Assembly: GCA_965224025.1 (NCBI GenBank)
Contig: OZ245033.1
Coordinates: 2,016,001-2,080,000 of the forward strand
Source: Candidatus Multivorans sp.
Lineage (GTDB): Bacteria; Acidobacteriota; Thermoanaerobaculia; Multivoradales; Multivoraceae
Direction of reading: 5' to 3'
DNA length: 64,000 nucleotides
Position 1 is the first letter of the stretch. Each line of letters begins with the position of its first letter. The position numbers were made by a program, and so were the translations under genes. The notes below the pieces were generated by a model. That model worked only from the letters and a program-made list of their open reading frames with translations. It made no database searches and was not told where the DNA came from. This document shows positions 2,792-31,486 of this stretch, piece by piece.

Positions 2792-4561
2792 CTAGGGCAG
2801 CGCGAACACGAACAGGTTGTTGCCCGAGCTGGGGCGCAACTCCGGCGTGAGCCCGGCCGAGAGGGCCGCCGACGTGCTACCCGTGCTGGCGACGACGTAC
2901 TGGCGCCCGTCGACTCCGAAGCTGATGGGGAAGCCGGTGACCGGTGAGCCGAGGTTTATCTCCCAGATGCTCTCGCCGGTCTCCTGGTCCAGGGCGCGGA
3001 ACCGGCCGTTGCCGTCGCCGACGAAGACCAGGCCGCCGGCGGTGACGAACAGTGACATCAGCCCCGCGCGCTGCTCGTAGGTCCACAGGGACTTGCCGGT
3101 TTCGGCAGACACGGCGTGGATGGCGCCGCTCAGGTCGGTGCCTTGCGCAATCTGGTGCTCGGCATCCAGGGCGTAGATCGCAAGCCGGCCGGCGCGCGTC
3201 GCCGTCATCAGGGCGCACGAGTTGCGCATCGGCACGTACATCGCGTTCGTCAGCGGGCTGTAGGCGCCGGCCTGCCAGTCCTTGCCGCCGATGTAGGTGG
3301 GGCAGACGTAGGCCTCCTGCCCCAGCTCGCGGAACACGACTTCCGTGTTCTCGGTGACCTTGCCGTCGCCGTCGATCGTGCTGATGACGTTCTGCCTGAT
3401 CGTCGGCCTCGCCCACAGGAACTCGCCGGTTTCGCGGTCGAGGGCGTACACCACGCCCGTCTTGCCGGGAACCCCGGTGATCACCTTGCGCACCTCGCCC
3501 GGCTCCACGCGGGGATTGATCCAGTCGACCGCGTCGGCGTCGGGCGCCACCGCCGTATCGACGAGTAGCCGCTCGAAGGGGTGGTCGAGGTCCCAGTGGT
3601 CGTTGAGGTGCTGGTAGTGCCACGCGATCTCGCCGGTGTTCGCGTCGAGCGCGAGGGTGGAGTTGTGGTACAGGTGCCTGAGATCCCTGCCGCCGAGCAG
3701 GAACTTCGGCGCCGGCGACGTCACCGAGGTGCCGATGTAGATGAGCTCCAGGCCCGGGTCGTAGCTCGGCACCATCCAGGCGCCGACGTGGGTACGATCC
3801 TCGAACGGGATGTCGCCCCAGGTTTCGTTGCCCGGCTCTCCCGGCGCCGGAATCGTGCGGCGCCGCCAGAGTTCGGCCCCGGTCTTCGCGTCGTGGGCGA
3901 CGATGACGCAGGCGTCGGGGCCGCCGCGGGGCAGGCAACTGCGGCCCGAGATCACCTTGCCGTCGGCGATGATCGGGCCGGAGCTCTGCATCGCCGGCTG
4001 GGTCTTATAGTCGAGGATCATCGTCTCCCAGACCAACTCGCCCGTCGCCGCGTCGAGCGCGAAGACGAACTCGTCGACGCTGGTGTCGATGATCAGGTCG
4101 CCGTAGATCGCGATGTTCCGGTTGTTGGCCGCCAGCGAGCCGACCTGCTGGAGGATGTTGTCCGGGTGCTGGCGCCGGTACTCCCAGATGAGGACCCCTT
4201 CCGTGGCGTCGATGGCCTGGATGACGTCGATGGGGTTCGGCATGTACATCACGCCGTCGTAGACGAGCGGCGTCCCCTGCTGGCGGCCGTCGCTCATGCC
4301 GCGGGACCAGACCAACCGCAGGTCGCCTACGTTCTCGGGCGTGATCTGGTCGAGCGGGCTGTAGCCCCAGCCGTCGAGCGTTCGGCGCCACATCAACCAG
4401 TCGTCGTCGCTCGGGTCCTGGAGCATGGCGTCCGTGACCGGCACGAAGTCGCTTCGTTCAGGCGAGCTTGCCGTCTGTGCCTCGGCGACCGGGGTCCAGA
4501 GGACCACCGTCAGGAGGACGGCGAGAAGTGCCGCCTGGAGCAAGAAACCGCGCTGAGTCAC
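2792..4561 (-). CDS. PQQ-dependent dehydrogenase / PQQ-binding beta-propeller protein, secreted
   Basis: Signal peptide from GTG 4561; DWLMWRRT..GWGYSPLDQI, QGTPLVYDG, repeated A(L)DAxTGxxxW propeller motifs, DHWDLD, C-terminal GRQYVV. Confidence 0.9.
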   Translation of the reverse strand: MTQRGFLLQAALLAVLLTVVLWTPVAEAQTASSPERSDFVPVTDAMLQDPSDDDWLMWRRTLDGWGYSPLDQITPENVGDLRLVWSRGMSDGRQQGTPLVYDGVMYMPNPIDVIQAIDATEGVLIWEYRRQHPDNILQQVGSLAANNRNIAIYGDLIIDTSVDEFVFALDAATGELVWETMILDYKTQPAMQSSGPIIADGKVISGRSCLPRGGPDACVIVAHDAKTGAELWRRRTIPAPGEPGNETWGDIPFEDRTHVGAWMVPSYDPGLELIYIGTSVTSPAPKFLLGGRDLRHLYHNSTLALDANTGEIAWHYQHLNDHWDLDHPFERLLVDTAVAPDADAVDWINPRVEPGEVRKVITGVPGKTGVVYALDRETGEFLWARPTIRQNVISTIDGDGKVTENTEVVFRELGQEAYVCPTYIGGKDWQAGAYSPLTNAMYVPMRNSCALMTATRAGRLAIYALDAEHQIAQGTDLSGAIHAVSAETGKSLWTYEQRAGLMSLFVTAGGLVFVGDGNGRFRALDQETGESIWEINLGSPVTGFPISFGVDGRQYVVASTGSTSAALSAGLTPELRPSSGNNLFVFALP

Positions 4562-4721
4562 AGGAAGGTGTGACTCTAGCTGAGTTGTAGCTCGGAGGAT
4601 GGTCGCCGCTTTGCGGCGGGTCTTTTCCCAGAAGCCGGCCAGAGGGCCGGCGCACCTGTACCTTTCCGGGATGCATTCTGGCGTGTCGTTGAGAGAGGTG
4701 GAATGGACCAGTAGCCGTCGT

Positions 4722-4817
4722 GGCTGCGGTAGCTGTGGGAAACCGGCTTGCCGGTTTTCCAAGGTCCGGCGGGAAACGGTCTGCCGTTTTCCGCCGGACC
4801 GGCAGCTTCCGCAGCCG
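4722..4817. repeat. Multi-hairpin structured segment in IS left end (also 9511-9606)
   Basis: Outer GGCTGCGG...CCGCAGCC stem enclosing GGAAACCGGC/GCCGGTTTTCC and GGTCCGGCGG...CCGCCGGACC hairpins. Confidence 0.7.
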
Positions 4818-4865
4818 AGACCGCCGGTCGGTTGCGTCTCCGGCCTGCCGGAGTCACTGAAGGAA

Positions 4866-5022
4866 AGTCGGCAAGCAGCCAGGAGCGACCACCGGCGCAC
4901 TGTGCTTCGAGCACCTGGCTGGGACCCGTGCCCTGGCTGCTTTGCCGCGTTGGACGCCCAGTGGAGAGTCAGTGCCTTAGAGCACCAGTACAGGTACGGG
5001 CAGGCAACGCGGCATGCCGACC
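4866..5022 (+). ncRNA. Putative IS110 bridge RNA core (target-binding and donor-binding loops), copy 1
   Basis: Closing helix GTCGGCA/TGCCGAC; stem GCAGCCAGG/CCTGGCTGC encloses CCGGCGCAC and CTGGG (target halves); stem GCCGCGTTG/CAACGCGGC encloses GTGGAGAGTC and GTACAGG (donor halves). Confidence 0.85.
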
Positions 5023-5056
5023 AGGCAACACTACCGCAAGGGAGAAGGAGGACGAG

Positions 5057-6312
5057 ATGATCAGGACGTGGTTCGCCGGCGTGGACTGGGGGTCCGAAAC
5101 CCACCACGTGTGTGTTTGCTGGGTCGGGACGGCAAGGTGAGGGGGGAGCGGGCGTTCGACCACAGCGGCAAGGGACTTGCCGCCATGGCCGACTGGCTCC
5201 TTGGACATGCACGACCGACGCCTCCGGGCGAGATCGGCGTCGCCATCGAGGTGCCGCACGGACCGGTCGTCGAGTGCCTCCTGGAGCGAGGCTTCGCCGT
5301 CCATTCGATCAACCCCAAGCAGCTCGACCGCTTCAGGGACCGCTTCTCCGTCGCCGGCGCCAAGGATGACCGCCGCGATGCACGGGCGCTCGCCGCCGCG
5401 CTTCGCACCGACCCCGAGTGCCTGAACCGCGTGCAACCATCCGATGCCGCCATCGTCATGCTGCGCGAGGTGTCCCGCGCCCGCAAGCAGTTGGTCAACC
5501 AGAAGAACCGCCTGGAGAACCAGGTCCGCGACCAGATCTGGCGCTACTACCCGCAGTTTCTCGCCGTGGTCAAGAACGAGGTGTCGGCGCCCTTCGCGCT
5601 GGCCTTGTGGCGACTGGCGCCGACCCCCGGCAAGGCTCGACGGCTGCGCGAGACCACGCTCGCCAAGCTGCTCAAGGAACACCGCATCCGGCGCCTGACT
5701 GCCGCCCAACTGCGCGATCAACTGCGGGCCGAGCCGATCGCCGTTTCCCCGGACACCGTTAAGGCCGCCGTCGAACACATAGGACTCCTCCGGCCGGTGC
5801 TCGACACCGTCTGCCGCCAACTCGCCGACGCCGACAAGCGGCTGGAGCGGATGACCCGCGCACTCGAGGCCCCGGCCCAACGGGAAAACGACGACGACTC
5901 CCCTAAGCCGAGCGACGCCGCCATCCTCAGGTCGCTGCCCGGACTCGGCAAGGTCGGCCTCGCCACCCTGCTCTCCGAGGCCGATCAAAGCCTGGGCCGC
6001 AGAGACTACGAGGCACTGCGTTGCCTCTGCGGAGTGGCGCCGGTGACCGTCAAGTCCGGCAAGAAGCTCATCGTCATGCGACGACTCGCCGCCAACGAGC
6101 ACCTCAGCGACGCCGTCTATCACTGGGGACGAGTCGCCATCCAGCACGACCCGATCAGCCGCGCCAAGTACGACGCCATGAAAGCCGAAGGCAAGACACA
6201 CGGACGAGCCATCAGACAACTCGTCGATCGACTCCTCGGCGTCGCCTGCGCCATGCTCCGAGACCGCACTCTCTTCGACCCCAACAAGAGAAGCCATGCC
6301 CAGGTCGCATGA
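5057..6312 (+). pseudogene. IS110 transposase/recombinase, frameshifted
   Basis: GVDWG, IEVPHG, KDDRRDA (DEDD) and APVTVKSGK (catalytic Ser) motifs; a 2-nt TT insertion near 5114-5116 relative to copy 2 shifts the frame after about 20 codons. Confidence 0.9.
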
Positions 6313-6347
6313 CCTGCCTGACCCGCAGCAACCTCCCCAAAACACAC

Positions 6348-6353
6348 TTGCTA
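6348..6353 (+). promoter_or_regulatory. -35 box (TTGCTA) of circle-junction promoter; partner -10 TACCTT at 4659-4664
   Basis: Joining right end, CC and left end gives TTGCTA-17 nt-TACCTT; same in copy 2 (11135-11140 and 9448-9453). Confidence 0.7.
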
Positions 6354-6413
6354 AAGGGTGGAGAGTCCCAGTTTTCCAGAAGGGCGGCGCAGCCGGCTCC
6401 TGGGGGCCAACTT

Positions 6414-7550
6414 CTAGCGGGACGAGGAGAGCCGGACTTCCAGGTTCTCTTCGCCGTCGCTTCGCACCACGGTCACCGTGACGACGTCGCCGACGCGGAA
6501 GTCCTCGACGATCGTGTGGACGTCGTTCACCGAGGCGACCTGACGACCTTCGATCGCGGTGATCAGGTCGCCCAGGACGATGCCGCGGCGTGTCCGCCGG
6601 CTTTCGCGCATGCCGGCTCGTTCGGCGCCGGAGCCCGGCACCACCCTGGTGACCAGCGCGCCCTTGACGCCGCGCGCGCGGAGCAGGGAGTCGTCCAGCT
6701 CGACGCCGATCAGCGGTCGCTCGACTTCGCCGTGCGCGATCAGTTCCGGGACGACCCAGTTCACGGTGTCCACCGGGATCGCGAATCCGATACCGCCCCA
6801 GGCGCCGCTGGAAGAGACGATCTGGGTGTTCACGCCGATCAGCCGGCCGCTCGAGTCGAGCAGGGGGCCGCCGGAGTTGCCCGGGTTGATCGCGGCATCG
6901 GTCTGAATCACGCCGCGGATCAGGCGGTTGGTGAGCGAAGACACCTCACGATCCAGGGCGCTGATCACACCTGTGGTCAGGGTGTGGTCGAGACCGAAGG
7001 GGTCGCCGATGGCGAGCACGGACTGGCCCACCTGAAGGTCGCGCGAAGTGCCGACCGCGATGGGCCGCAGCTTGTCTGCCGGCGCCTCGATCTTCAGCAC
7101 GGCAAGATCCACATGCGGGTCGCCGCCGATCACCTGGGCCGGCCAGGTGCTCTGATCGCTCAGGGTGACGAGCGTTTCGTGGGCGCGGAACACGACGTGG
7201 AAGTTCGTGACCACGTGACCCTTCGCGTCCCAGATGAAGCCGGTGCCGGTGCCCTCCGGAACGCGGTCGATGCGGCGGGCGAAGACGTTGCGGCGGTTCG
7301 GCACGGTAGTGATGTTCACCACCGAGGGCGAGGCCTTCCGGAACAGCTCGACCGTGGTGCGTTCCTCCGGCAGGAGCCCGCCGGCCGGCGCCACCTGGCG
7401 CGGCTCGACGCGGCTGTCGGCCTCCAGGACGCTGCCCTGCCACCTCGAGCCGAAGACGAAAGCGAGAAGGGCGAGGACGACGAGGCCGGAGGCAGCGGCA
7501 AAACGCGGCCGGGGCCGTCCTTCCGGTCCAGATGGAGTTCCGTGGGGCAT
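6414..7550 (-). CDS. HtrA/DegQ-like trypsin serine protease with one PDZ domain
   Basis: GTGTGFIW, VTNFHV, DLAVL, IQTDAAINPGNSGGPL; N-terminal transmembrane segment; C-terminal PDZ. Confidence 0.93.
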   Translation of the reverse strand: MPHGTPSGPEGRPRPRFAAASGLVVLALLAFVFGSRWQGSVLEADSRVEPRQVAPAGGLLPEERTTVELFRKASPSVVNITTVPNRRNVFARRIDRVPEGTGTGFIWDAKGHVVTNFHVVFRAHETLVTLSDQSTWPAQVIGGDPHVDLAVLKIEAPADKLRPIAVGTSRDLQVGQSVLAIGDPFGLDHTLTTGVISALDREVSSLTNRLIRGVIQTDAAINPGNSGGPLLDSSGRLIGVNTQIVSSSGAWGGIGFAIPVDTVNWVVPELIAHGEVERPLIGVELDDSLLRARGVKGALVTRVVPGSGAERAGMRESRRTRRGIVLGDLITAIEGRQVASVNDVHTIVEDFRVGDVVTVTVVRSDGEENLEVRLSSSR

Positions 7551-7614
7551 GGACTAAAGCTAACAGGAGTTGGTTCCCGGTTTCTTCCCTTCGGCGCCGC
7601 TACCATTCGCGCCC

Positions 7615-9315
7615 GTGACCGCCATCGAACTCCTGAACGCAGATCCCCTGCTAGCTGCCGCTCTGGACCGGCGCCGCCGCCAGTGGCGCGAGGCGGACGC
7701 TACAGTTCGCCTGTGGTCCGGCGACGGTTCGCTCTGGACGGATTCCGGCGAGGCGGAGTGGCTGGGTTGGCTCGACGTCGAGCGGCTCGGCCGCGTGTCG
7801 GTCTCGAAGCCTGACGGCGACCGCGTCGAGATGGCGGCTGCCGACCTTGCGGAGCATCTCGCCGGCCGACCCTTTGAACGCTGCCTGCTGCTCGGCATGG
7901 GCGGCTCGGCGCTCGGCGCGGACCTGCTCTGGCGGGCGCTGCCGCGCCGGGTCGATGCCGAGTACATCGTCCTCGACACGACGGATCCGCGGGAGATCGC
8001 GTCGGCTCTGGATGGTGTCGCGCCCGCGTCGTTGAAGGTCATCGCGGCGTCCAAGTCGGGCGGCACGATCGAAACGAGGCTGGCGTTCGAGCTGCTGCTC
8101 GACCGGCTGGGGCCGGCGGCTTCGTCGGCGGCGTTGGCGATCACGGATCCGGGCTCCGCGCTCGAAGAACGCGCCCGGGCCGCCGGTGCCGGGGTCGTCT
8201 TCGGCCACCCGGACATCGGCGGGCGGTTCTCCGTGCTGTCGGCGTTCGGCCTGGCGCCGGCGGCGGTAGCGGGCATCGACGTGGAGCCGCTTCTTGGGAG
8301 CGCGCGGGCGATGGCCGCGGCGTGCCGGCGCGGCGGAACGGATTCAGAGACGAACCCCGGGGTCGAGCTGGGGTTGCTGCTCGCGGCGGCGCACGACTGC
8401 GGCCGCGACAAGCTCTATCTTCATGCCCCGGCCAAGTGCGCGGCGATGGCCGCGTGGGTCGAGCAACTGATCGCCGAGTCCCTCGGAAAGGGCGACGTAC
8501 TGCTGTTGCCTGTCGCTGCGGCCGGCGTGCCGGCGGAGCCGAACCCGGACCGGCTCGACGTCGTGCTCGGAAACGTGAGTGGCAACGGTGCGCAGGCCTC
8601 GGCGCCGGTGCCTGACGGTCCGGTCGTCCGGATCGGCGCGGACCTTCCGGTCGACCTCGGCGGCGAGTTCTTCCGCTGGCAGTTCGCCACGGCCGTGGCC
8701 GGAGCACTGCTGGGCCTCAACCCCTTCGACCAGCCGGACGTGGAGTCGTCCAAGGTCGTCACCCGGCGCTACGTCGAGCGGATGAAGGCCGGCGATGCGC
8801 CGGCGCCCGGTGGCGTGGTCCGGCTGAGCGAGGTCAGCGAGCTAGGGCTCGCCCAGCTCCTGGGCACGCACCTCGGGACGTTCCCGGAGAGCGGCTACGC
8901 CGTCATCTCGGCCTATCTTGATCGCAGCGACCGCAACCGGGAGCTGCTCCAGACTCTGCGCCGGCGCGTCGCCGACGTCACAGGCGGCGCGTCCGTGCTC
9001 GGTTTCAGTCCGAGCTTCCTGCACTCGACGGGACAGGCGCACAAGGGCGGCCCCAACCGCGGTCTGTTCCTGCAGATCACCGCCGATCCGCCGGCTGCGG
9101 ACATCTCGGTTCCAGGCGTTGGCCTGACCTTCGGCCAGGTCCAGCTCGCCCAGGCCTGGGGCGACTACGAAGTGCTCGTCGAGCGGAAGCGTCGGGTGCT
9201 CGCCGTCCATCTCGACGGCGAGGTGGAGGAAGGGGTGCGGCGGTTGGTGACTGGGTGCGCCGGCGTCCCCGCCGGCTCGCCGCCGAAGGCGGCCAAGGAA
9301 ACGCGCCGGCCGTAA
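7615..9315 (+). CDS. Glucose-6-phosphate isomerase-like protein (PGI domain of Tal-PGI type)
   Basis: WLGWLD, LGMGGSALG, ASKSGGTIET, AITDPGS, IGGRFSVLS, EQLIAESLGK, NPFDQPDVE, HSTGQAHKGGP. Confidence 0.85.
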   Translation: MTAIELLNADPLLAAALDRRRRQWREADATVRLWSGDGSLWTDSGEAEWLGWLDVERLGRVSVSKPDGDRVEMAAADLAEHLAGRPFERCLLLGMGGSALGADLLWRALPRRVDAEYIVLDTTDPREIASALDGVAPASLKVIAASKSGGTIETRLAFELLLDRLGPAASSAALAITDPGSALEERARAAGAGVVFGHPDIGGRFSVLSAFGLAPAAVAGIDVEPLLGSARAMAAACRRGGTDSETNPGVELGLLLAAAHDCGRDKLYLHAPAKCAAMAAWVEQLIAESLGKGDVLLLPVAAAGVPAEPNPDRLDVVLGNVSGNGAQASAPVPDGPVVRIGADLPVDLGGEFFRWQFATAVAGALLGLNPFDQPDVESSKVVTRRYVERMKAGDAPAPGGVVRLSEVSELGLAQLLGTHLGTFPESGYAVISAYLDRSDRNRELLQTLRRRVADVTGGASVLGFSPSFLHSTGQAHKGGPNRGLFLQITADPPAADISVPGVGLTFGQVQLAQAWGDYEVLVERKRRVLAVHLDGEVEEGVRRLVTGCAGVPAGSPPKAAKETRRP

Positions 9316-9402
9316 GGCCGGCACTGCGAGCGGTCAGAGTGGAGCGAGGCTGGCGCCTCGCCGTTTCTTCTCAGAAGCCGGCGGGGACGCCGGCGCACCC
9401 AG
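9251..9402. repeat. REPIN-like unit: inverted pair of GCCGGCGGGGACGCCGGCGCACCCAG (9251-9276 minus, 9377-9402 plus)
   Basis: Exact inverted copies; internal hairpins shared with 31348-31470. Confidence 0.85.
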
Positions 9403-9654
9403 TGCGAGGCGCCGTGCCGAGAACCGGCGGGGACGCCGGCGCACCTGTACCTTTCTCGGGTGGATTCTGGTGGGTCGTTGAGAGAGGTGGAATCGACCAG
9501 TAGCCGTCGCGGCTGCGGTAGCTGTGGGAAACCGGCTTGCCGGTTTTCCAAGGTCCGGCGGGAAACGGTCTGCCGTTTTCCGCGGGACCGGCAGCTTCCG
9601 CAGCCGAGACCGCCGGTCGGTTGCGTCTCCGGCCTGCCGGAGTCACTGAAGGAA

Positions 9655-9811
9655 GGTCGGCAAGCAGCCAGGAGCGACCACCGGCGCACTGTGCTTCGAG
9701 CACCTGGCTGGGACCCGTGCCCTGGCTGCTTCGCCGCGTTGGACGCCCAGTGGAGAGTCAGTGCCTTAGAGCACCAGTACAGGTACGGGCAGGCAACGCG
9801 GCATGCCGACC
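9655..9811 (+). ncRNA. Putative IS110 bridge RNA core, copy 2
   Basis: Same stems and identical guide segments as 4866-5022. Confidence 0.85.
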
Positions 9812-9845
9812 AGGCAACACTACCGCAAGGGAGAAGGAGGACGAG

Positions 9846-11099
9846 ATGACCAGGACGTGGTTCGTCGGCGTGGACTGGGGGTCCGAGACCCACCACGTGT
9901 GTGTGCTGGATCGGGACGGCAAGGTGAGGGGGGAGCGGGCGTTCGACCACAGCGGCAAGGGACTTGCCGCCATGGCCGACTGGCTCCTTGGACATACCCG
10001 ACCGACGTCTCCGGACGAGATCGGCGTCGCCATCGAGGTGCCGCACGGACCGGTGGTCGAGACTCTCCTGGAGCGGGGCTTCGCCGTGCATTCGATCAAC
10101 CCCAAGCAGCTCGACCGCTTCAGGGACCGCTTCTCCGTCGCCGGCGCCAAGGATGACCGCCGCGATGCACGGGCGCTCGCCGCCGCGCTTCGCACCGACC
10201 CCGAGTGCCTGAACCGCGTGCAACCATCCGATGCAGCCATCGTGATGCTGCGCGAGGTGTCCCGCGGCCGCAAGCAGTTGGTCGGCCAGAAGAACCGCCT
10301 GGAGAACCAAGTCCGCGACCAGATCTGGCGCTACTACCCGCAGTTTCTCGCCGTGGTCAAGAACGAGGTGTCGGCGCCCTTCGCGCTGGCCTTGTGGCGA
10401 CTGGCGCCGACCCCCGGCAAGGCTCGACGGCTGCGCGAAGCCACGCTCGCCAAACTGCTCAAGGAACACCGCATCCGGCGCCTGACTGCCGCCCAACTGC
10501 GCGATCAACTGCGGGCCGAGCCGATCGCCGTTTCCCCGGACACCGTTAAGGCCGCCGTCGAACACATAGGACTCCTCCGGCCGGTGCTCGACACCGTCTG
10601 CCGCCAACTCGCCGACGCCGACAAGCGGCTGGAGCGGATGACCCGCGCACTCGAGGCCCCGGCCCAACGGGAAAACGACGACGACTCCCCTAAGCCGAGC
10701 GACGCCGCCATCCTCAGGTCGCTGCCCGGACTCGGCAAGGTCGGCCTCGCCACCCTGCTCTCCGAGGCCGATCAAAGCCTGGGCCGCAGAGACCACGAGG
10801 CACTGCGTTGCCTCTGCGGAGTGGCGCCGGTGACCGTCAAGTCCGGCAAGAAGCTCATCGTCATGCGACGACTCGCCGCCAACGAACACCTCAGCGACGC
10901 CGTCTATCACTGGGGACGAGTCGCCATCCAGCACGACCCGATCAGCCGCGCCAAGTACGACGCCATGAAAGCCCAGGGAAAGACGCACGGACGCGCCATC
11001 AGACAACTCGTCGACCGACTCCTCGGCGTCGCCTGCGCCATGCTCCGAGACCGAACTCTCTTCGACCCCAACAAGCGATGCCATGCCCAGGTCGCATGA
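9846..11099 (+). CDS. IS110 family transposase/bridge recombinase (intact, 417 aa)
   Basis: AAGGAGG RBS; DEDD RuvC-like motifs, coiled-coil linker, C-terminal Tnp domain with VAPVTVKSGK. Confidence 0.95.
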   Translation: MTRTWFVGVDWGSETHHVCVLDRDGKVRGERAFDHSGKGLAAMADWLLGHTRPTSPDEIGVAIEVPHGPVVETLLERGFAVHSINPKQLDRFRDRFSVAGAKDDRRDARALAAALRTDPECLNRVQPSDAAIVMLREVSRGRKQLVGQKNRLENQVRDQIWRYYPQFLAVVKNEVSAPFALALWRLAPTPGKARRLREATLAKLLKEHRIRRLTAAQLRDQLRAEPIAVSPDTVKAAVEHIGLLRPVLDTVCRQLADADKRLERMTRALEAPAQRENDDDSPKPSDAAILRSLPGLGKVGLATLLSEADQSLGRRDHEALRCLCGVAPVTVKSGKKLIVMRRLAANEHLSDAVYHWGRVAIQHDPISRAKYDAMKAQGKTHGRAIRQLVDRLLGVACAMLRDRTLFDPNKRCHAQVA

Positions 11100-11162
11100 C
11101 CTCCCTGACCCGCAGCAGCCTCCCCAAAACACACTTGCTAAAGGGTGGAGAGTCCCGGTGGG

Positions 11163-11426
11163 CTAGCGCCGGCCCCGCCGCCCGCTCGCCGGCTTGCCCA
11201 TCAGCTCGTCGAGCCCGACGTTGAACTCCGCGACGATCCGTATCAGCACGTCCAGGCTGACCCGGAGTTCGTCCCGCTCGATCCGTGACAGGTCGGACGG
11301 CGGAATGCCGACGCGCTCCGCCAGCGCGGGCTGCGTCAGCTTGTTCTTGCGCCGCAGCCGCCGGATCCGATGACCCATGAGCTGGACCTGTTGTGCGGGT
11401 GCTTCCTTGTTCATCGCCTGCGCCAT
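11163..11426 (-). CDS. XRE-family HTH transcriptional regulator
   Basis: GHRIRRLRRKNKLTQPALAERVGI..SDLSRIER; start uncertain. Confidence 0.8.
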   Translation of the reverse strand: MAQAMNKEAPAQQVQLMGHRIRRLRRKNKLTQPALAERVGIPPSDLSRIERDELRVSLDVLIRIVAEFNVGLDELMGKPASGRRGRR

Positions 11427-26966: not shown

Positions 26967-28355
26967 ATGAGGCAATTCAAGACGTTGCGAGGAGCTTGCG
27001 CGGCGGAAACTGGGTGCGCCGGCGCCCCCGCCGGCATCCGGTGCGAAGCGTCGGCCTTCTGTAGTTCTGCCGCCGTAGCGCTAGCGGTTGCCGCCGGCTG
27101 CTTACTTCTGATCGCCTGCGGGTCCACCGAACTCGTCACTCTGCCGGAGATCGACACCTCCGGTTCGCCGGACGGCATCGTCGACCTTCCCGCCGACGCG
27201 CCCGAGGTGTTCCACAAGTACTTCGACCGGTACGCCTGGTTCCCGACGCCGGACGGCAGGCGGATCCACTTCCTCGTCTCGAGCGGCTGGACCCGCGACC
27301 AGATCAAGCACGGCCTCAACGTGATGGAGCATCTGCTGGCGGACCACCCGGGCTCGGTCTACGGCGACGACAAGTCCGGGATCGCCGTGGCGATGGCGGA
27401 CCGCAAGGCGACGATGGTGTTCTTCGACACGGAGGACGACCTGCGCCAGGCGATGAGCGAGGGACTGGCCGACGCGACGGATCTCAGCATGCAGGACCTG
27501 CGCGCGAACGAATGTCCGGCCCCGGGCGACGCGGACTACATGGGTCATGTGACCAGGGACGCCGCCTACGAGGAGATCTGGCACCTGATCCACGACTACG
27601 GGATCAAGCCGACCCTCACTTCGATGATCGCCGAGATGAGGACGGCGAACGACGAAGCGGCGACCAAGAGCTGGTACGCGTGGCCCCGTGACGTGCCGGA
27701 CGACCATCCGAACGAGTACATGGGCGCCCTGATCGACAACTACTACGACCTCTGGACGGTGCCGCCGACCGTGTACGAGGGGCGCGACATCGCGCCCGAC
27801 GAGATTCCCGAGGGATACTCCCACTTCGGGCAGTACTTCGCGGGCAGTCGCGCGGCCATGCCGGAGAAGGACCCGCTCGGCTACGCGTTGGTCACGAACT
27901 TCGTCGGGCCGTATCTGACCTACACGCCGGAACTGCCGCTGGACTTCAGCGGCACGTTCTCGATGACGTTCGCCCCGGAGGTGCGGTACACGATGAAGAC
28001 CCAGCATCTGCGGAACGTCGCGCTCACCGGCGACGGCGACGCGGACCTGCGCGGCAACGCTCACGACAATGTGCTCACCGGCAACGGCGGCGCCAACCGG
28101 CTCGAGGGCGGCGGCGGCAACGACATGCTTGACGGCGGCGACGGCGACGACACGGCGGTCTTCTCGGCCCCGGCGGCCGAGTACGAAGTCGCCGCCGGTG
28201 AGGACGGAGTGACGGTGACCGACTCGCAGCCGGACCGCGACGGGACGGACACGCTGCGAGCGGTTGAGTTCCTGCAGTTCAGCGATGCCCTCGTGGACCA
28301 GGTGGGCGGTCGGGTCTGGGAGCGCGGCGTGCAACTGGACCAGCCGGAACAGTAG
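26967..28355 (+). CDS. Lipoprotein with EEIWH zincin-like domain and RTX/hemolysin-type Ca-binding repeats
   Basis: LIAC lipobox; AAYEEIWHLIH; GNGGANRLEGGGGNDMLDGGDGDD; DGTDTLRAVEFLQFSD. Confidence 0.75.
   Translation: MRQFKTLRGACAAETGCAGAPAGIRCEASAFCSSAAVALAVAAGCLLLIACGSTELVTLPEIDTSGSPDGIVDLPADAPEVFHKYFDRYAWFPTPDGRRIHFLVSSGWTRDQIKHGLNVMEHLLADHPGSVYGDDKSGIAVAMADRKATMVFFDTEDDLRQAMSEGLADATDLSMQDLRANECPAPGDADYMGHVTRDAAYEEIWHLIHDYGIKPTLTSMIAEMRTANDEAATKSWYAWPRDVPDDHPNEYMGALIDNYYDLWTVPPTVYEGRDIAPDEIPEGYSHFGQYFAGSRAAMPEKDPLGYALVTNFVGPYLTYTPELPLDFSGTFSMTFAPEVRYTMKTQHLRNVALTGDGDADLRGNAHDNVLTGNGGANRLEGGGGNDMLDGGDGDDTAVFSAPAAEYEVAAGEDGVTVTDSQPDRDGTDTLRAVEFLQFSDALVDQVGGRVWERGVQLDQPEQ
27010..27035 (-). 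repeat. REP-like unit (GCCGGCGGGGGCGCCGGCGCACCCAG)
   Basis: Matches the IS target family; lies in the 5' coding region. Confidence 0.8.
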
Positions 28356-31347: not shown

Positions 31348-31486
31348 CTGGATGCGCCGGCGTCCTCGCCGGCTGCCGCCGCAGGCGGCCAGGAACACGC
31401 GCCGGCCGACGGCCGGCACCTTCGCTTCGCGGCGGCGCCCGGATGCCGGCGAGGACGCCGGCGCACCCAGTTTGTGGCGCACCCAG
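31348..31486. repeat. REPIN-like unit between convergent genes (REPs 31348-31373 minus, 31445-31470 plus, extra GGCGCACCCAG)
   Basis: Shares REPs and internal hairpins with 9251-9402. Confidence 0.85.

What the first reader, a model, noticed from the sequence alone, without database searches (positions are those of the whole stretch)
4866..5022. Legible bridge RNA: a two-loop guide RNA encoding both target and donor specificity of an IS110 recombinase
Seen, loop 1: stem GCAGCCAGG (4875-4883) / CCTGGCTGC (4932-4940) encloses CCGGCGCAC (4892-4900), identical to the left flank of both insertions including the first core C. It then has a GTGC-TTCGA-GCAC hairpin and CTGGG (4919-4923), the reverse complement of core + right flank CCCAG. 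Seen, loop 2: stem GCCGCGTTG / CAACGCGGC encloses GTGGAGAGTC (4961-4970), identical to the element's right end + core. It then has a GTGC-CTTAGA-GCAC hairpin and GTACAGG (4988-4994), the reverse complement of core + left end CCTGTAC. GTCGGCA/TGCCGAC closes both loops into a three-way junction. All four guides are identical in copy 2 (9655-9811). Established: IS621-type IS110 bridge RNAs use this left/right target-guide and donor-guide layout. Inference: this is a programmable RNA-guided recombinase with a CC core (IS621 uses CT), target CCGGCGCAC-C-CAG and donor GTGGAGAGT-CC-TGTAC. Whether this ortholog is already catalogued cannot be determined here.
Basis: partly seen in the sequence, partly recalled or inferred. 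Interest (0 to 1): 0.95.

Follow-up and report, generated by a model that had tools for sequence, protein, structure and literature searches.

The report
Bridge RNA of an IS110 element
This is a real bridge RNA gene, the two-loop guide RNA that tells an IS110-type jumping gene where to insert, and it is a well-behaved new member of a system described in 2024, not a new kind of thing.

Summary
The 157-nt segment lies in the left end of a 1.7-kb IS110-group insertion sequence. The window holds two copies; the genome holds 12 full-length copies plus fragments.

The recombinase of copy 2 has the DEDD and Transposase_20 domains and aligns with the IS621 catalytic residues. The RNA folds as a three-way junction with two internal loops.

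Evidence that the loops are guides:
- A covariance model built on 12 same-genus sequences finds the RNA just upstream of the recombinase in 56 of 57 orthologous loci.
- Stems keep pairing through compensatory changes.
- Loop sequences change together with the DNA beside each element: 19 distinct target-guide pairs in 54 loci.
- The left donor guide tracks the right end in three states.
- A handshake position complements the last left-target base in 52 of 53 loci.
- The core is CC throughout the clade.

Expression and activity could not be tested.

This is a new member of a known kind, of moderate-to-low interest.

One unexplained extra is a conserved, about 190-nt structured leader ahead of the bridge RNA.

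The parts
9446..11153 (+). IS110-group element, copy 2. It has an intact recombinase and lies between two copies of the CC core (9444-9445 and 11154-11155).
   Evidence: Alignment of the two copies; junctions of all genomic copies.
4657..6366 (+). IS110-group element, copy 1. Its CC cores are at 4655-4656 and 6367-6368. The recombinase frame is broken by 2 extra bases near 5115-5116.
   Evidence: The two copies show 97% mean column identity over the aligned stretch.
4866..5022 (+). Bridge RNA gene, copy 1. The covariance model match spans 4865-5024.
   Evidence: One search gives 186.3 bits.
9655..9811 (+). Bridge RNA gene, copy 2. The covariance model match spans 9654-9813.
   Evidence: One search gives 185.5 bits.
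4892..4901 (+). Left target guide CCGGCGCAC plus U. It equals the left target CCGGCGCA plus the first core C. The U faces the second core position as a wobble.
   Evidence: Covariation is shown.
4919..4925 (+). Right target guide CTGGG, the complement of core CC plus CAG. It is followed by AC, a handshake position that complements the last donor bases GT.
   Evidence: In one search the base after GG is A and the last left-donor base is T in 41 of 41 loci that have a right end.
4961..4970 (+). Left donor guide GTGGAGAGTC. It equals the last 9 bases of the element plus the first core C.
   Evidence: Three covarying states are seen.
4988..4995 (+). Right donor guide GTACAGG, the complement of CC plus TGTAC. 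It is followed by U, a handshake position that complements the last left-target base A.
   Evidence: One search finds 52 of 53 loci complementary, in three states.
9846..11099 (+). Recombinase of 417 aa (P0001). AGGAGG lies 6-7 nt ahead of the ATG.
   Evidence: PF01548 at 1.5e-32 and PF02371 at 8e-13. NF033542 at 173.9 bits against a cut-off of 140. D10, E64, D104, D107 and S333 align with IS621 D11, E60, D102, D105 and S241.
9446..9654 (+). Structured leader between the element's left tip and the bridge RNA: a long helix capped by a three-way-junction module at 9498-9621. The copy 1 equivalent is 4657-4865.
   Evidence: -138.5 kcal/mol, z -9.56. In 14 orthologues 94.6% of cells pair and 13 of 57 pairs changed on both sides.
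11135..11140 (+). TTGCTA, a candidate -35 box in the right end. It meets TACCTT (9448-9453) at a 17-nt spacing only when the ends are joined in a circle.
   Evidence: 7 of 12 consensus matches. TTGNNA is conserved at this place in orthologues. No promoter-like site is found in the linear left end.
9390..9402 (+). Unoccupied target site CCGGCGCACCCAG in the neighbouring REP-like palindrome.
   Evidence: The genome holds 57 such sites, against 7 for the reversed-pattern control.

Best explanation
The segment is the gene for the bridge RNA of an IS110-group insertion sequence.

Inferred by analogy with IS621:
- The element excises as a circle.
- Joining its ends places a -35 box from the right end next to a -10 box in the left end.
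- Transcription from that promoter yields a leader followed by a roughly 160-nt RNA with two internal loops held by a closing stem.
- The recombinase tetramer cuts with the serine next to the DEDD site, exchanges top strands at the CC core, and resolves the junction.
- The bases just 3' of each loop's core-pairing GG then pair with the partner DNA (handshake).

Shown here:
- Loop 1 reads a REP-like target. Its 5' side equals CCGGCGCA plus C, and its 3' side complements CC plus CAG.
- Loop 2 reads the joined ends. Its 5' side equals GTGGAGAGT plus C, and its 3' side complements CC plus TGTAC.
- The anatomy, the catalytic residues, conservation of the structure, covariation of guide with target, of guide with donor and at the handshake position, and multi-copy insertion at one site type.

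Not shown: transcription, the circle, and recombination activity.
For: Anatomy and chance.

Protein:
- Both IS110 domains are present and the NCBIfam model NF033542 scores over its cut-off.
- D10, E64, D104, D107 and S333-G334 align with the IS621 catalytic residues.

Mobility:
- The genome holds 12 full-length copies at 97-100% identity, plus fragments.
- All 16 left junctions read CCGGCG[C/T]AC-C (12 with C, 4 with T). All 15 right junctions read CCC[A/G]G (13 with A, 2 with G).
- 57 empty sites remain.

RNA structure:
- In 12 same-genus sequences 98.7% of cells pair and 9 of 39 pairs changed on both sides. Slid controls pair at 26-42%.
- In 25 distinct sequences from other genomes 93.2% of cells pair and 25 of 39 pairs changed on both sides. 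This alignment was fitted to the model.
- G-U pairs occur only in the + sense, which points to an RNA on this strand.

The model finds the RNA upstream of the recombinase in 56 of 57 loci. In the window it finds only the two copies at E below 0.4.

Guide covariation:
- 19 guide pairs in 54 loci. The left guide averages 8.31 with cognate flanks and 4.33 with non-cognate flanks. The right guide averages 6.62 and 3.70.
- Wholly different targets each match their own loop 1, for example GGGGTC-CC-TTTTCA, GCGATC-CC-ATTTG and GTGATAGC-CC-TTGTC.

Donor: GTGGAGAGT, GTGGGAAGT and GTGGGGAGT in the guide each match their own right end.

Handshake: 52 of 53 loci are complementary (A:T 7, C:G 41, G:C 4) and one is a T:G wobble.

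Published layout: 5' side 8-9 nt to the bottom strand, 3' side 4-7 nt to the top strand (PMC11208160, passages). Handshake guides and catalytic residues: PMC11208158, passages.
Against: - No RNA evidence was obtained.
- The junction promoter matches only 7 of 12 consensus positions. About 190 nt of very stable structure lies between it and the bridge RNA, so the real start of the RNA is unknown.
- Copy 1's recombinase is frameshifted. That copy could move only with help in trans.
- The C/T polymorphism in the left target guide among this genome's copies does not track the C/T polymorphism of their flanks. T flanks occur in 2 of 5 T-guide copies and in 2 of 10 C-guide copies.
- Some loci miss on one side. 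L143 and L119 have right flanks that do not match the right target guide, and L108 has a left flank with a 4-nt match only.
- Related genomes are not independent samples, so the counts overstate the number of evolutionary events.
- The right ends were located with the donor-guide 9-mer itself. Only one search tests the donor guide without circularity.
Confidence: 0.9

Rival explanations
1. The matches are DNA-level features of the left end, such as internal copies of the ends and of the preferred target that serve as protein-binding sites. On this view no RNA is involved.
For: No RNA data could be obtained. Transposon ends often carry subterminal repeats.
Against: - Stems are kept by compensatory changes, with G-U pairs that work on one strand only.
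- Loop 1 changes with the flanking host DNA, which a site for binding the element's own ends would not do.
- The homologous IS621 segment acts as RNA in vitro (PMC11208160, passages).
Confidence: 0.03
2. The RNA gene is a real homologue, but the family is now a fossil in this genome: copies persist without moving.
For: Copy 1 is frameshifted. Several copies are truncated or carry internal deletions (L013-L017).
Against: - 13 frames read through all or nearly all of the protein (residues 1-409 or 1-417) without a stop, at 97-100% identity.
- Guides are identical in most copies.
- All copies sit in cognate sites, and 57 sites are still empty.
- High identity among copies suggests recent spread.
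Confidence: 0.06
3. The agreement between loops and flanks is chance in a GC-rich, repeat-rich genome.
For: The 5-nt right target guide alone is weak: it appears in 53,813 of 200,000 shuffles.
Against: All four strings together appear in 0 of 200,000 shuffles. Covariation across 19 guide pairs also argues against chance.
Confidence: 0.005

Closest known systems
IS621 of Escherichia coli, recombinase plus bridge RNA (Durrant et al. 2024, PMC11208160; Hiraizumi et al. 2024, PMC11208158; PDB 8wt6)
   Same: - A DEDD plus Tnp recombinase with the same catalytic residues.
- The RNA is encoded in the left end upstream of the gene.
- Two loops, each with a 5' guide equal to the top strand and a 3' guide complementary to it.
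- Target and donor share a 2-nt core.
- Handshake positions.
- A promoter split across the joined ends.
- REP-type targets.
   Different: - The protein is only distantly alike (phmmer E 2e-11, two short stretches).
- The core is CC, not CT.
- The base of the left target guide that faces the second core position is U, which gives a wobble.
- The donor arms are 9 and 5 nt.
- About 190 nt of structured leader precede the RNA.
- The host is an uncultured Acidobacteriota lineage, going by the titles of the nearest public records.
ISCro4 / IS622 (Perry et al. 2025 preprint, 10.1101/2025.05.14.653916; PDB 9t56)
   Same: Same system. It has the same loop names and the same handshake logic (passages).
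   Different: E 1.5e-09, and only over the C-terminal domain. It uses a CT core.
ISPpu10 of Pseudomonas putida (preprint 10.64898/2026.03.19.712850, abstract only)
   Same: The target sits next to a GC-rich stem-loop of a repeated intergenic element. Here the target's left arm is the 3' arm of the palindrome GCCGGC-N6-GCCGGC.
   Different: Whether the stem-loop adds specificity here was not tested.
IS1111-group elements with seekRNA (Siddiquee et al. 2024, PMC11187229, passages)
   Same: An RNA from the non-coding end guides a DEDD transposase. The joined ends create a promoter.
   Different: In that group the RNA lies downstream of the gene and the order of the guide regions is reversed. Here it lies upstream, so this element belongs to the IS110 group.
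Cargo-carrying IS110 elements (preprint 10.64898/2026.08.14.744561, abstract only)
   Same: An orthologue in a related genome is 3.8 kb long with the same ends (L067 297-4087).
   Different: The window's own copies are minimal, at 1.7 kb.

Membership tests
IS110-group bridge recombinase system (IS621 type) | Recombinase with an N-terminal DEDD RuvC-like domain and a C-terminal Tnp (Transposase_20) domain | tested here: met
   PF01548 at 113 bits and PF02371 at 49 bits. NF033542 at 173.9 bits against a cut-off of 140.
IS110-group bridge recombinase system (IS621 type) | Catalytic D, E, D, D and the Tnp serine | tested here: met
   D10, E64, D104, D107 and S333 align with IS621 D11, E60, D102, D105 and S241.
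IS110-group bridge recombinase system (IS621 type) | Structured non-coding RNA gene in the left end, upstream of the recombinase | tested here: met
   The position is 35 nt ahead of the ATG. The model finds it in 56 of 57 orthologous loci. Stems covary.
IS110-group bridge recombinase system (IS621 type) | Two internal loops: a 5' side of 8-9 nt equal to the top strand and a 3' side of 4-7 nt complementary to it, one loop for the target and one for the donor | tested here: met
   9 and 5 nt for the target, 10 and 7 nt for the donor. The published layout is in PMC11208160.
IS110-group bridge recombinase system (IS621 type) | Target guides covary with flanking DNA across orthologues | tested here: met
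   19 guide pairs in 54 loci. Cognate against non-cognate averages are 8.31 vs 4.33 and 6.62 vs 3.70.
IS110-group bridge recombinase system (IS621 type) | Donor guides match the element's own ends and covary with them | tested here: met
   The left donor guide shows three states, each matching its right end. The right donor guide hardly varies, so it says little.
IS110-group bridge recombinase system (IS621 type) | The same 2-nt core in target and donor, present on both sides of the inserted element | tested here: met
   CC ends 53 of 53 left flanks and begins 41 of 41 right flanks. The empty site in the window confirms a 2-nt overlap.
IS110-group bridge recombinase system (IS621 type) | Handshake guides next to the core-pairing bases | tested here: met
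   52 of 53 loci are complementary in three states, and 41 of 41 on the target-loop side.
IS110-group bridge recombinase system (IS621 type) | A promoter formed only when the ends are joined | tested here: inconclusive
   TTGCTA-17-TACCTT gives 7 of 12 consensus matches, and the -35 box is conserved in orthologues. No site is found in the linear left end. The start of the RNA is unknown.
IS110-group bridge recombinase system (IS621 type) | The RNA is made and is needed for recombination, and specificity follows the guides | not testable with these tools
   Needs RNA sequencing and a recombination assay.
IS1111 group (seekRNA downstream, long subterminal inverted repeats) | Guide RNA encoded in the right end, downstream of the gene | tested here: not met
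   The right end is only about 55 nt beyond the stop codon. The RNA is upstream.
Any Rfam 15 family | Match at or above the gathering score | tested here: not met
   The only hit in 4400-11400 at E up to 1 is Cgb105, at 18.7 bits against a gathering score of 163. It lies in the leader, not in the bridge RNA.

The most novel reading that the evidence does not exclude
In this Thermoanaerobaculia-type lineage the bridge RNA is made as part of a longer RNA. Its conserved, about 190-nt leader is a long helix capped by a three-way junction that is also found at the end of an unrelated IS21-type element.

The leader may be a new, portable regulatory RNA domain of insertion sequences. For example, it could shield the guide RNA and the transposase gene from read-through transcription, or it could set the 5' end of the guide RNA.
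Probability: 0.2. Interest if true: 0.55.

Novelty: new member of a known kind. Interest (0 to 1): 0.3.

Why it matters
It confirms that a reader can recognise a bridge RNA from raw sequence alone.

It adds a well-documented natural series to the family:
- A clade with a fixed CC core.
- At least 19 naturally reprogrammed target loops.
- Three donor-guide states.
- Clear handshake covariation.
- A host phylum, Acidobacteriota, for which my searches found no paper on this system.

Such a series could be useful to people who look for bridge recombinases with other core preferences. It does not change how the system is understood.

Tried and rejected
RNA evidence. The look-up of sequencing runs listed six holders and no RNA holder.

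Read laying. I laid four of those runs, all short assembled contigs, on 9300-11300. This showed no contig joining the right end to the left end and none spanning an empty site. Repeats break such contigs, so this says nothing either way. It did show the C-to-T variant at 9687 in contigs of three runs.

Rfam. No family matched the bridge RNA.

Guide polymorphism within the genome. I asked whether C or T in the guide tracks C or T in the flank. It does not: 2 of 5 against 2 of 10, too few to test.

Core register. I considered whether the core could be CT as in IS621. The window's junctions and its empty site allow only CC. In the GGGGTCCC-type orthologues the overlap is 3 nt (CCT), so the register there is ambiguous.

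Upstream open frame. The frame stays open upstream of the ATG, through the RNA gene (ORF 9537-11099). I rejected it as coding for three reasons:
- The length of the open frame differs among orthologues.
- The Pfam and IS621 alignments start at residues 5-7.
- A ribosome-binding site precedes ATG 9846.

Cluster look-up. The listing of cluster members gave no useful name.

Literature.
- Searching 'bridge RNA' with 'CC core' found 0 papers.
- Searching 'IS110' with 'Acidobacteriota' found 3 papers, none on this topic judging by title and abstract start.
- Supplementary tables were closed. I therefore could not check whether this orthologue or a CC core is in the Durrant et al. database.

Rows dropped.
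- One search left out L040 (weak 27.8-bit match, 34% protein identity) and L116 (loop 1 truncated, no left end found).
- One search left out those two and also L089, because my rule picked the wrong TGTAC for its left end. One search gives the right one for the same element.
- L144 had no model match.

Full report
WHAT IS THERE

The 157-nt stretches 4866-5022 and 9655-9811 differ at two bases, neither in a guide. As RNA the stretch folds into a three-way junction: a 6-7 bp closing stem and two arms. Each arm is a long stem, a large internal loop and a small terminal hairpin (-82.2 kcal/mol, z -3.99).

The two stretches lie in two copies of a 1.7-kb element (97% mean column identity).
- Copy 2 (9446-11153) encodes an intact 417-aa protein from ATG 9846.
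- Copy 1 (4657-6366) has two extra bases near 5115-5116. These break the frame after about 19 codons.

THE PROTEIN

P0001 has the DEDD_Tnp_IS110 and Transposase_20 domains. It passes the NCBIfam model called 'IS110 family RNA-guided transposase' (173.9 bits, cut-off 140).

Against solved structures it matches IS621 (E 2e-11) and ISCro4 (E 1.5e-09). In that alignment D10, E64, D104, D107 and S333-G334 stand opposite the IS621 residues D11, E60, D102, D105 and S241-G242. Hiraizumi et al. show these to be catalytic (PMC11208158, passages; positions).

THE ELEMENT IN ITS GENOME

The window's genome holds 12 full-length copies at 97-100% identity. It also holds two copies with an internal deletion in the left end, one right part, one left part and smaller pieces.
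- All 16 left junctions read CCGGCG[C/T]AC-C before TGTAC (12 with C, 4 with T).
- All 15 right junctions read CCC[A/G]G after GAGAGT (13 with A, 2 with G).
- The left target is the 3' arm of a palindrome, GCCGGC-N6-GCCGGC, followed by GCAC.

An unoccupied copy of the site, CCGGCGCACCCAG, lies 46 nt upstream of copy 2 (9390-9402). The window has 4 such sites (0.05 expected). The genome has 57, against 7 for the reversed pattern. Comparing the left junction, the right junction and the empty site gives an overlap of exactly two bases, CC.

IS THE RNA STRUCTURE REAL?

The protein has relatives in 11 of 61 related genomes searched, this genome included, at 93% down to 34% identity. Twelve upstream regions from that genus align well.
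- For the structure I defined, 98.7% of cells pair and 9 of 39 pairs changed on both sides. When the partners are slid, only 26-42% pair.
- RNAalifold on its own leaves the two loops unpaired, apart from three pairs inside loop 2 that I did not adopt.

A covariance model from these 12 sequences was run on 57 further loci from other public genomes. Going by the record titles, these are mostly Vicinamibacterales and Thermoanaerobaculia MAGs, one Azospirillum and one Gammaproteobacteria MAG.
- The model matched 56 of the 57 loci, always just upstream of the recombinase gene.
- In the window it finds only the two copies (186 and 185 bits). The next hit scores 13 bits.
- On the 25 distinct sequences of that second set, 93.2% of cells pair and 25 of 39 pairs changed on both sides. 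This alignment was fitted to the model, which favours the structure.
- G-U pairs occur in the + sense, so the structure belongs to the strand that also encodes the recombinase.

DO THE LOOPS GUIDE?

Same-genus set. Changes in loop 1 go with changes in the flank:

| Guide | Left flank |
|---|---|
| CCGGCGCAC | CCGGCGCAC |
| CCGCGCAC | CCCGCGCAC |
| GTCCGCGCAC | GGTCCGCGCAC |
| ATCGGCGCAC | GTCGGCGCAC |

Wider set. The targets are unrelated to the REP site, and each loop 1 matches its own flanks:

| Left guide | Right guide | Site |
|---|---|---|
| GGGGTCCC | GAAAAGG | GGGGTC-CC-TTTTCA |
| GCGATCCC | CAAATGG | GCGATC-CC-ATTTG |
| TTCGTCCC | GGGAGGG | TTCGTC-CC-CTCCC |
| GTGATAGCCC | GACAAGG | GTGATAGC-CC-TTGTC |
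| GTGGACGC | GGGGAGG | GTGGACG-CC-TCCCC |

Over 54 loci with 19 distinct guide pairs, I measured the longest string shared by guide and flank. L040 and L116 were left out.
- Left guide: mean 8.31 for cognate pairs (n = 54) and 4.33 for non-cognate pairs (n = 972).
- Right guide: mean 6.62 (n = 42) and 3.70 (n = 756).
- The high non-cognate values come from families that share a target.

Misses exist. L108 has a left match of 4. L119 and L143 have right matches of 3 and 2. For L089 my rule for finding the left end picked a wrong TGTAC.

DONOR SIDE

The left donor guide occurs as GTGGAGAGT, GTGGGAAGT or GTGGGGAGT. In the same-genus set each state equals the last nine bases of its own element, read from the sequence after the stop codon without using the guide. 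In one search the right ends were found with the guide 9-mer, so that call is not an independent test.

The right donor guide GTACAGG and the left tip TGTAC hardly vary. The one variant, GTACGGG in L038, gives a G-T wobble.

A 3-4 bp inverted repeat (AAAG ... CTTT) flanks the donor recognition bases. This is like the short subterminal repeat that Durrant et al. describe for the IS110 group.

CORE AND HANDSHAKE

CC ends 53 of 53 left flanks and begins 41 of 41 right flanks. L040, L116 and L089 were left out.

The base that follows the core-pairing GG of the right donor guide complements the last base of the left target in 52 of 53 loci: A with T in 7, C with G in 41, G with C in 4, and one T-G wobble. 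The matching base of loop 1 is A, opposite the last donor base T, in 41 of 41 loci. This is the handshake-guide relation of Hiraizumi et al..

HOW IT MOST LIKELY WORKS

By analogy with IS621 the element leaves as a circle. Members of the family are known to form such circles, and the abutted ends create a promoter (PMC11187229, passage).

Here TTGCTA in the right end (11135-11140) and TACCTT in the left tip (9448-9453) come to lie 17 nt apart only in the joined form. That gives 7 of 12 consensus matches. The -35 box is kept as TTGACA, TTGCAA, TTGCCA or TTGCTA in orthologues. The linear left end has no promoter-like site.

The RNA then pairs with both strands of the REP-type target and of the joined ends, and the recombinase exchanges strands at CC. 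All of this paragraph is inference. No RNA run holds the sequence, and the contigs laid could not show a circle.

COMPARISON AND NOVELTY

The layout is that of IS621 in every feature I could test. The differences are:
- a distant protein;
- a CC core;
- a U opposite the second core base in the left target guide;
- 9-nt and 5-nt donor arms;
- the host lineage.

The target beside a GC-rich stem-loop recalls ISPpu10 (abstract). A 3.8-kb orthologue with extra DNA between the gene and the right end fits the cargo-carrying elements of a 2026 preprint (abstract).

Thousands of orthologous RNAs were predicted in 2024. Supplements were closed, so I cannot say whether this one is among them. No paper held both 'bridge RNA' and 'CC core'. 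I file it as a new member of a known kind.

AN UNEXPLAINED EXTRA

In the Vicinamibacterales-type orthologues the RNA starts 38-39 nt from the left tip. In the window's lineage about 210 nt lie between them.

That stretch folds as one long helix capped by a three-way junction (-138.5 kcal/mol, z -9.56). In 14 orthologues:
- 94.6% of cells pair and 13 of 57 pairs changed on both sides;
- 7 of those 13 pairs are in the outer arms;
- invariant G-U pairs work only in the + sense;
- slid controls pair at 36-54%.

The cap (9498-9621) also occurs, at 85-88% identity, about 75 nt inside the end of an IS21-type element next to its IstB gene. There it points inward. One copy in a related genome lacks about 100 nt of the stretch.

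I have no tested explanation for this leader.

Noticed in passing
window 5057-6312 (copy 1), near 5115-5116: Two extra bases break the recombinase frame after about 19 codons. The longest frame then starts at ATG 5014, inside the bridge RNA's closing stem, and misses the first catalytic Asp. A gene caller would probably report that 432-aa frame.
   Followed up: partly
window 9446-9654 (copy 1: 4657-4865); cap module 9498-9621: There is a very stable, conserved structured leader between the element's left tip and the bridge RNA (z -9.56). It shows covarying arms and strand-specific G-U pairs. It is absent from the Vicinamibacterales-type orthologues.
   Followed up: partly
L018 1501-1623 (minus strand), L020 1501-1623, L019, L021: The same 125-nt three-way-junction module lies about 75 nt inside the end of a roughly 1.6-kb or longer repeat that encodes an IstB-like ATPase (PF01695, 2.6e-77). 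So two unrelated insertion-sequence families share it.
   Followed up: partly
window 9687 and the same position in other genomic copies (L002, L006, L010, L011, L014): The left target guide is CCGGCGTAC instead of CCGGCGCAC in 5 of 16 copies. The REP target shows the same C/T polymorphism, but guide and flank do not go together (2 of 5 against 2 of 10). The T variant also appears in contigs of three public runs.
   Followed up: yes
L067 297-4087 and L068 294-4084: These are 3.8-kb versions of an orthologous element, with about 2 kb of extra DNA between the recombinase gene and the right end. The two copies are on one 114-kb contig. The extra DNA was not annotated.
   Followed up: no
own genome, e.g. 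G000:C1:111845-112279 and 14 more places: A second, different IS110-family recombinase (PF01548, 92.5 bits) is present in about 15 copies. Its guide RNA was not looked for.
   Followed up: no
L119 and L131, right junctions: The right flank reads CC-TGTAC, like the element's own left tip, instead of matching the right target guide. This could be a tandem insertion or an insertion that used the donor-type half site.
   Followed up: no
L064 (related genome), left end: This copy lacks about 100 nt of the leader. The gap is bounded by short direct repeats (CCGCGGCCG-like).
   Followed up: partly
window 9251-9263 (-), 9390-9402 (+), 27010-27022 (-), 31458-31470 (+): Four unoccupied target sites lie in REP-like palindromes. 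Copy 2 sits in the second unit of a tandem pair of palindromes.
   Followed up: yes
(protein cluster of P0001): The 90%-identity cluster that holds the recombinase is listed together with 304-aa TauD/TfdA dioxygenases. This looks like an oddity of the look-up table, not biology.
   Followed up: no
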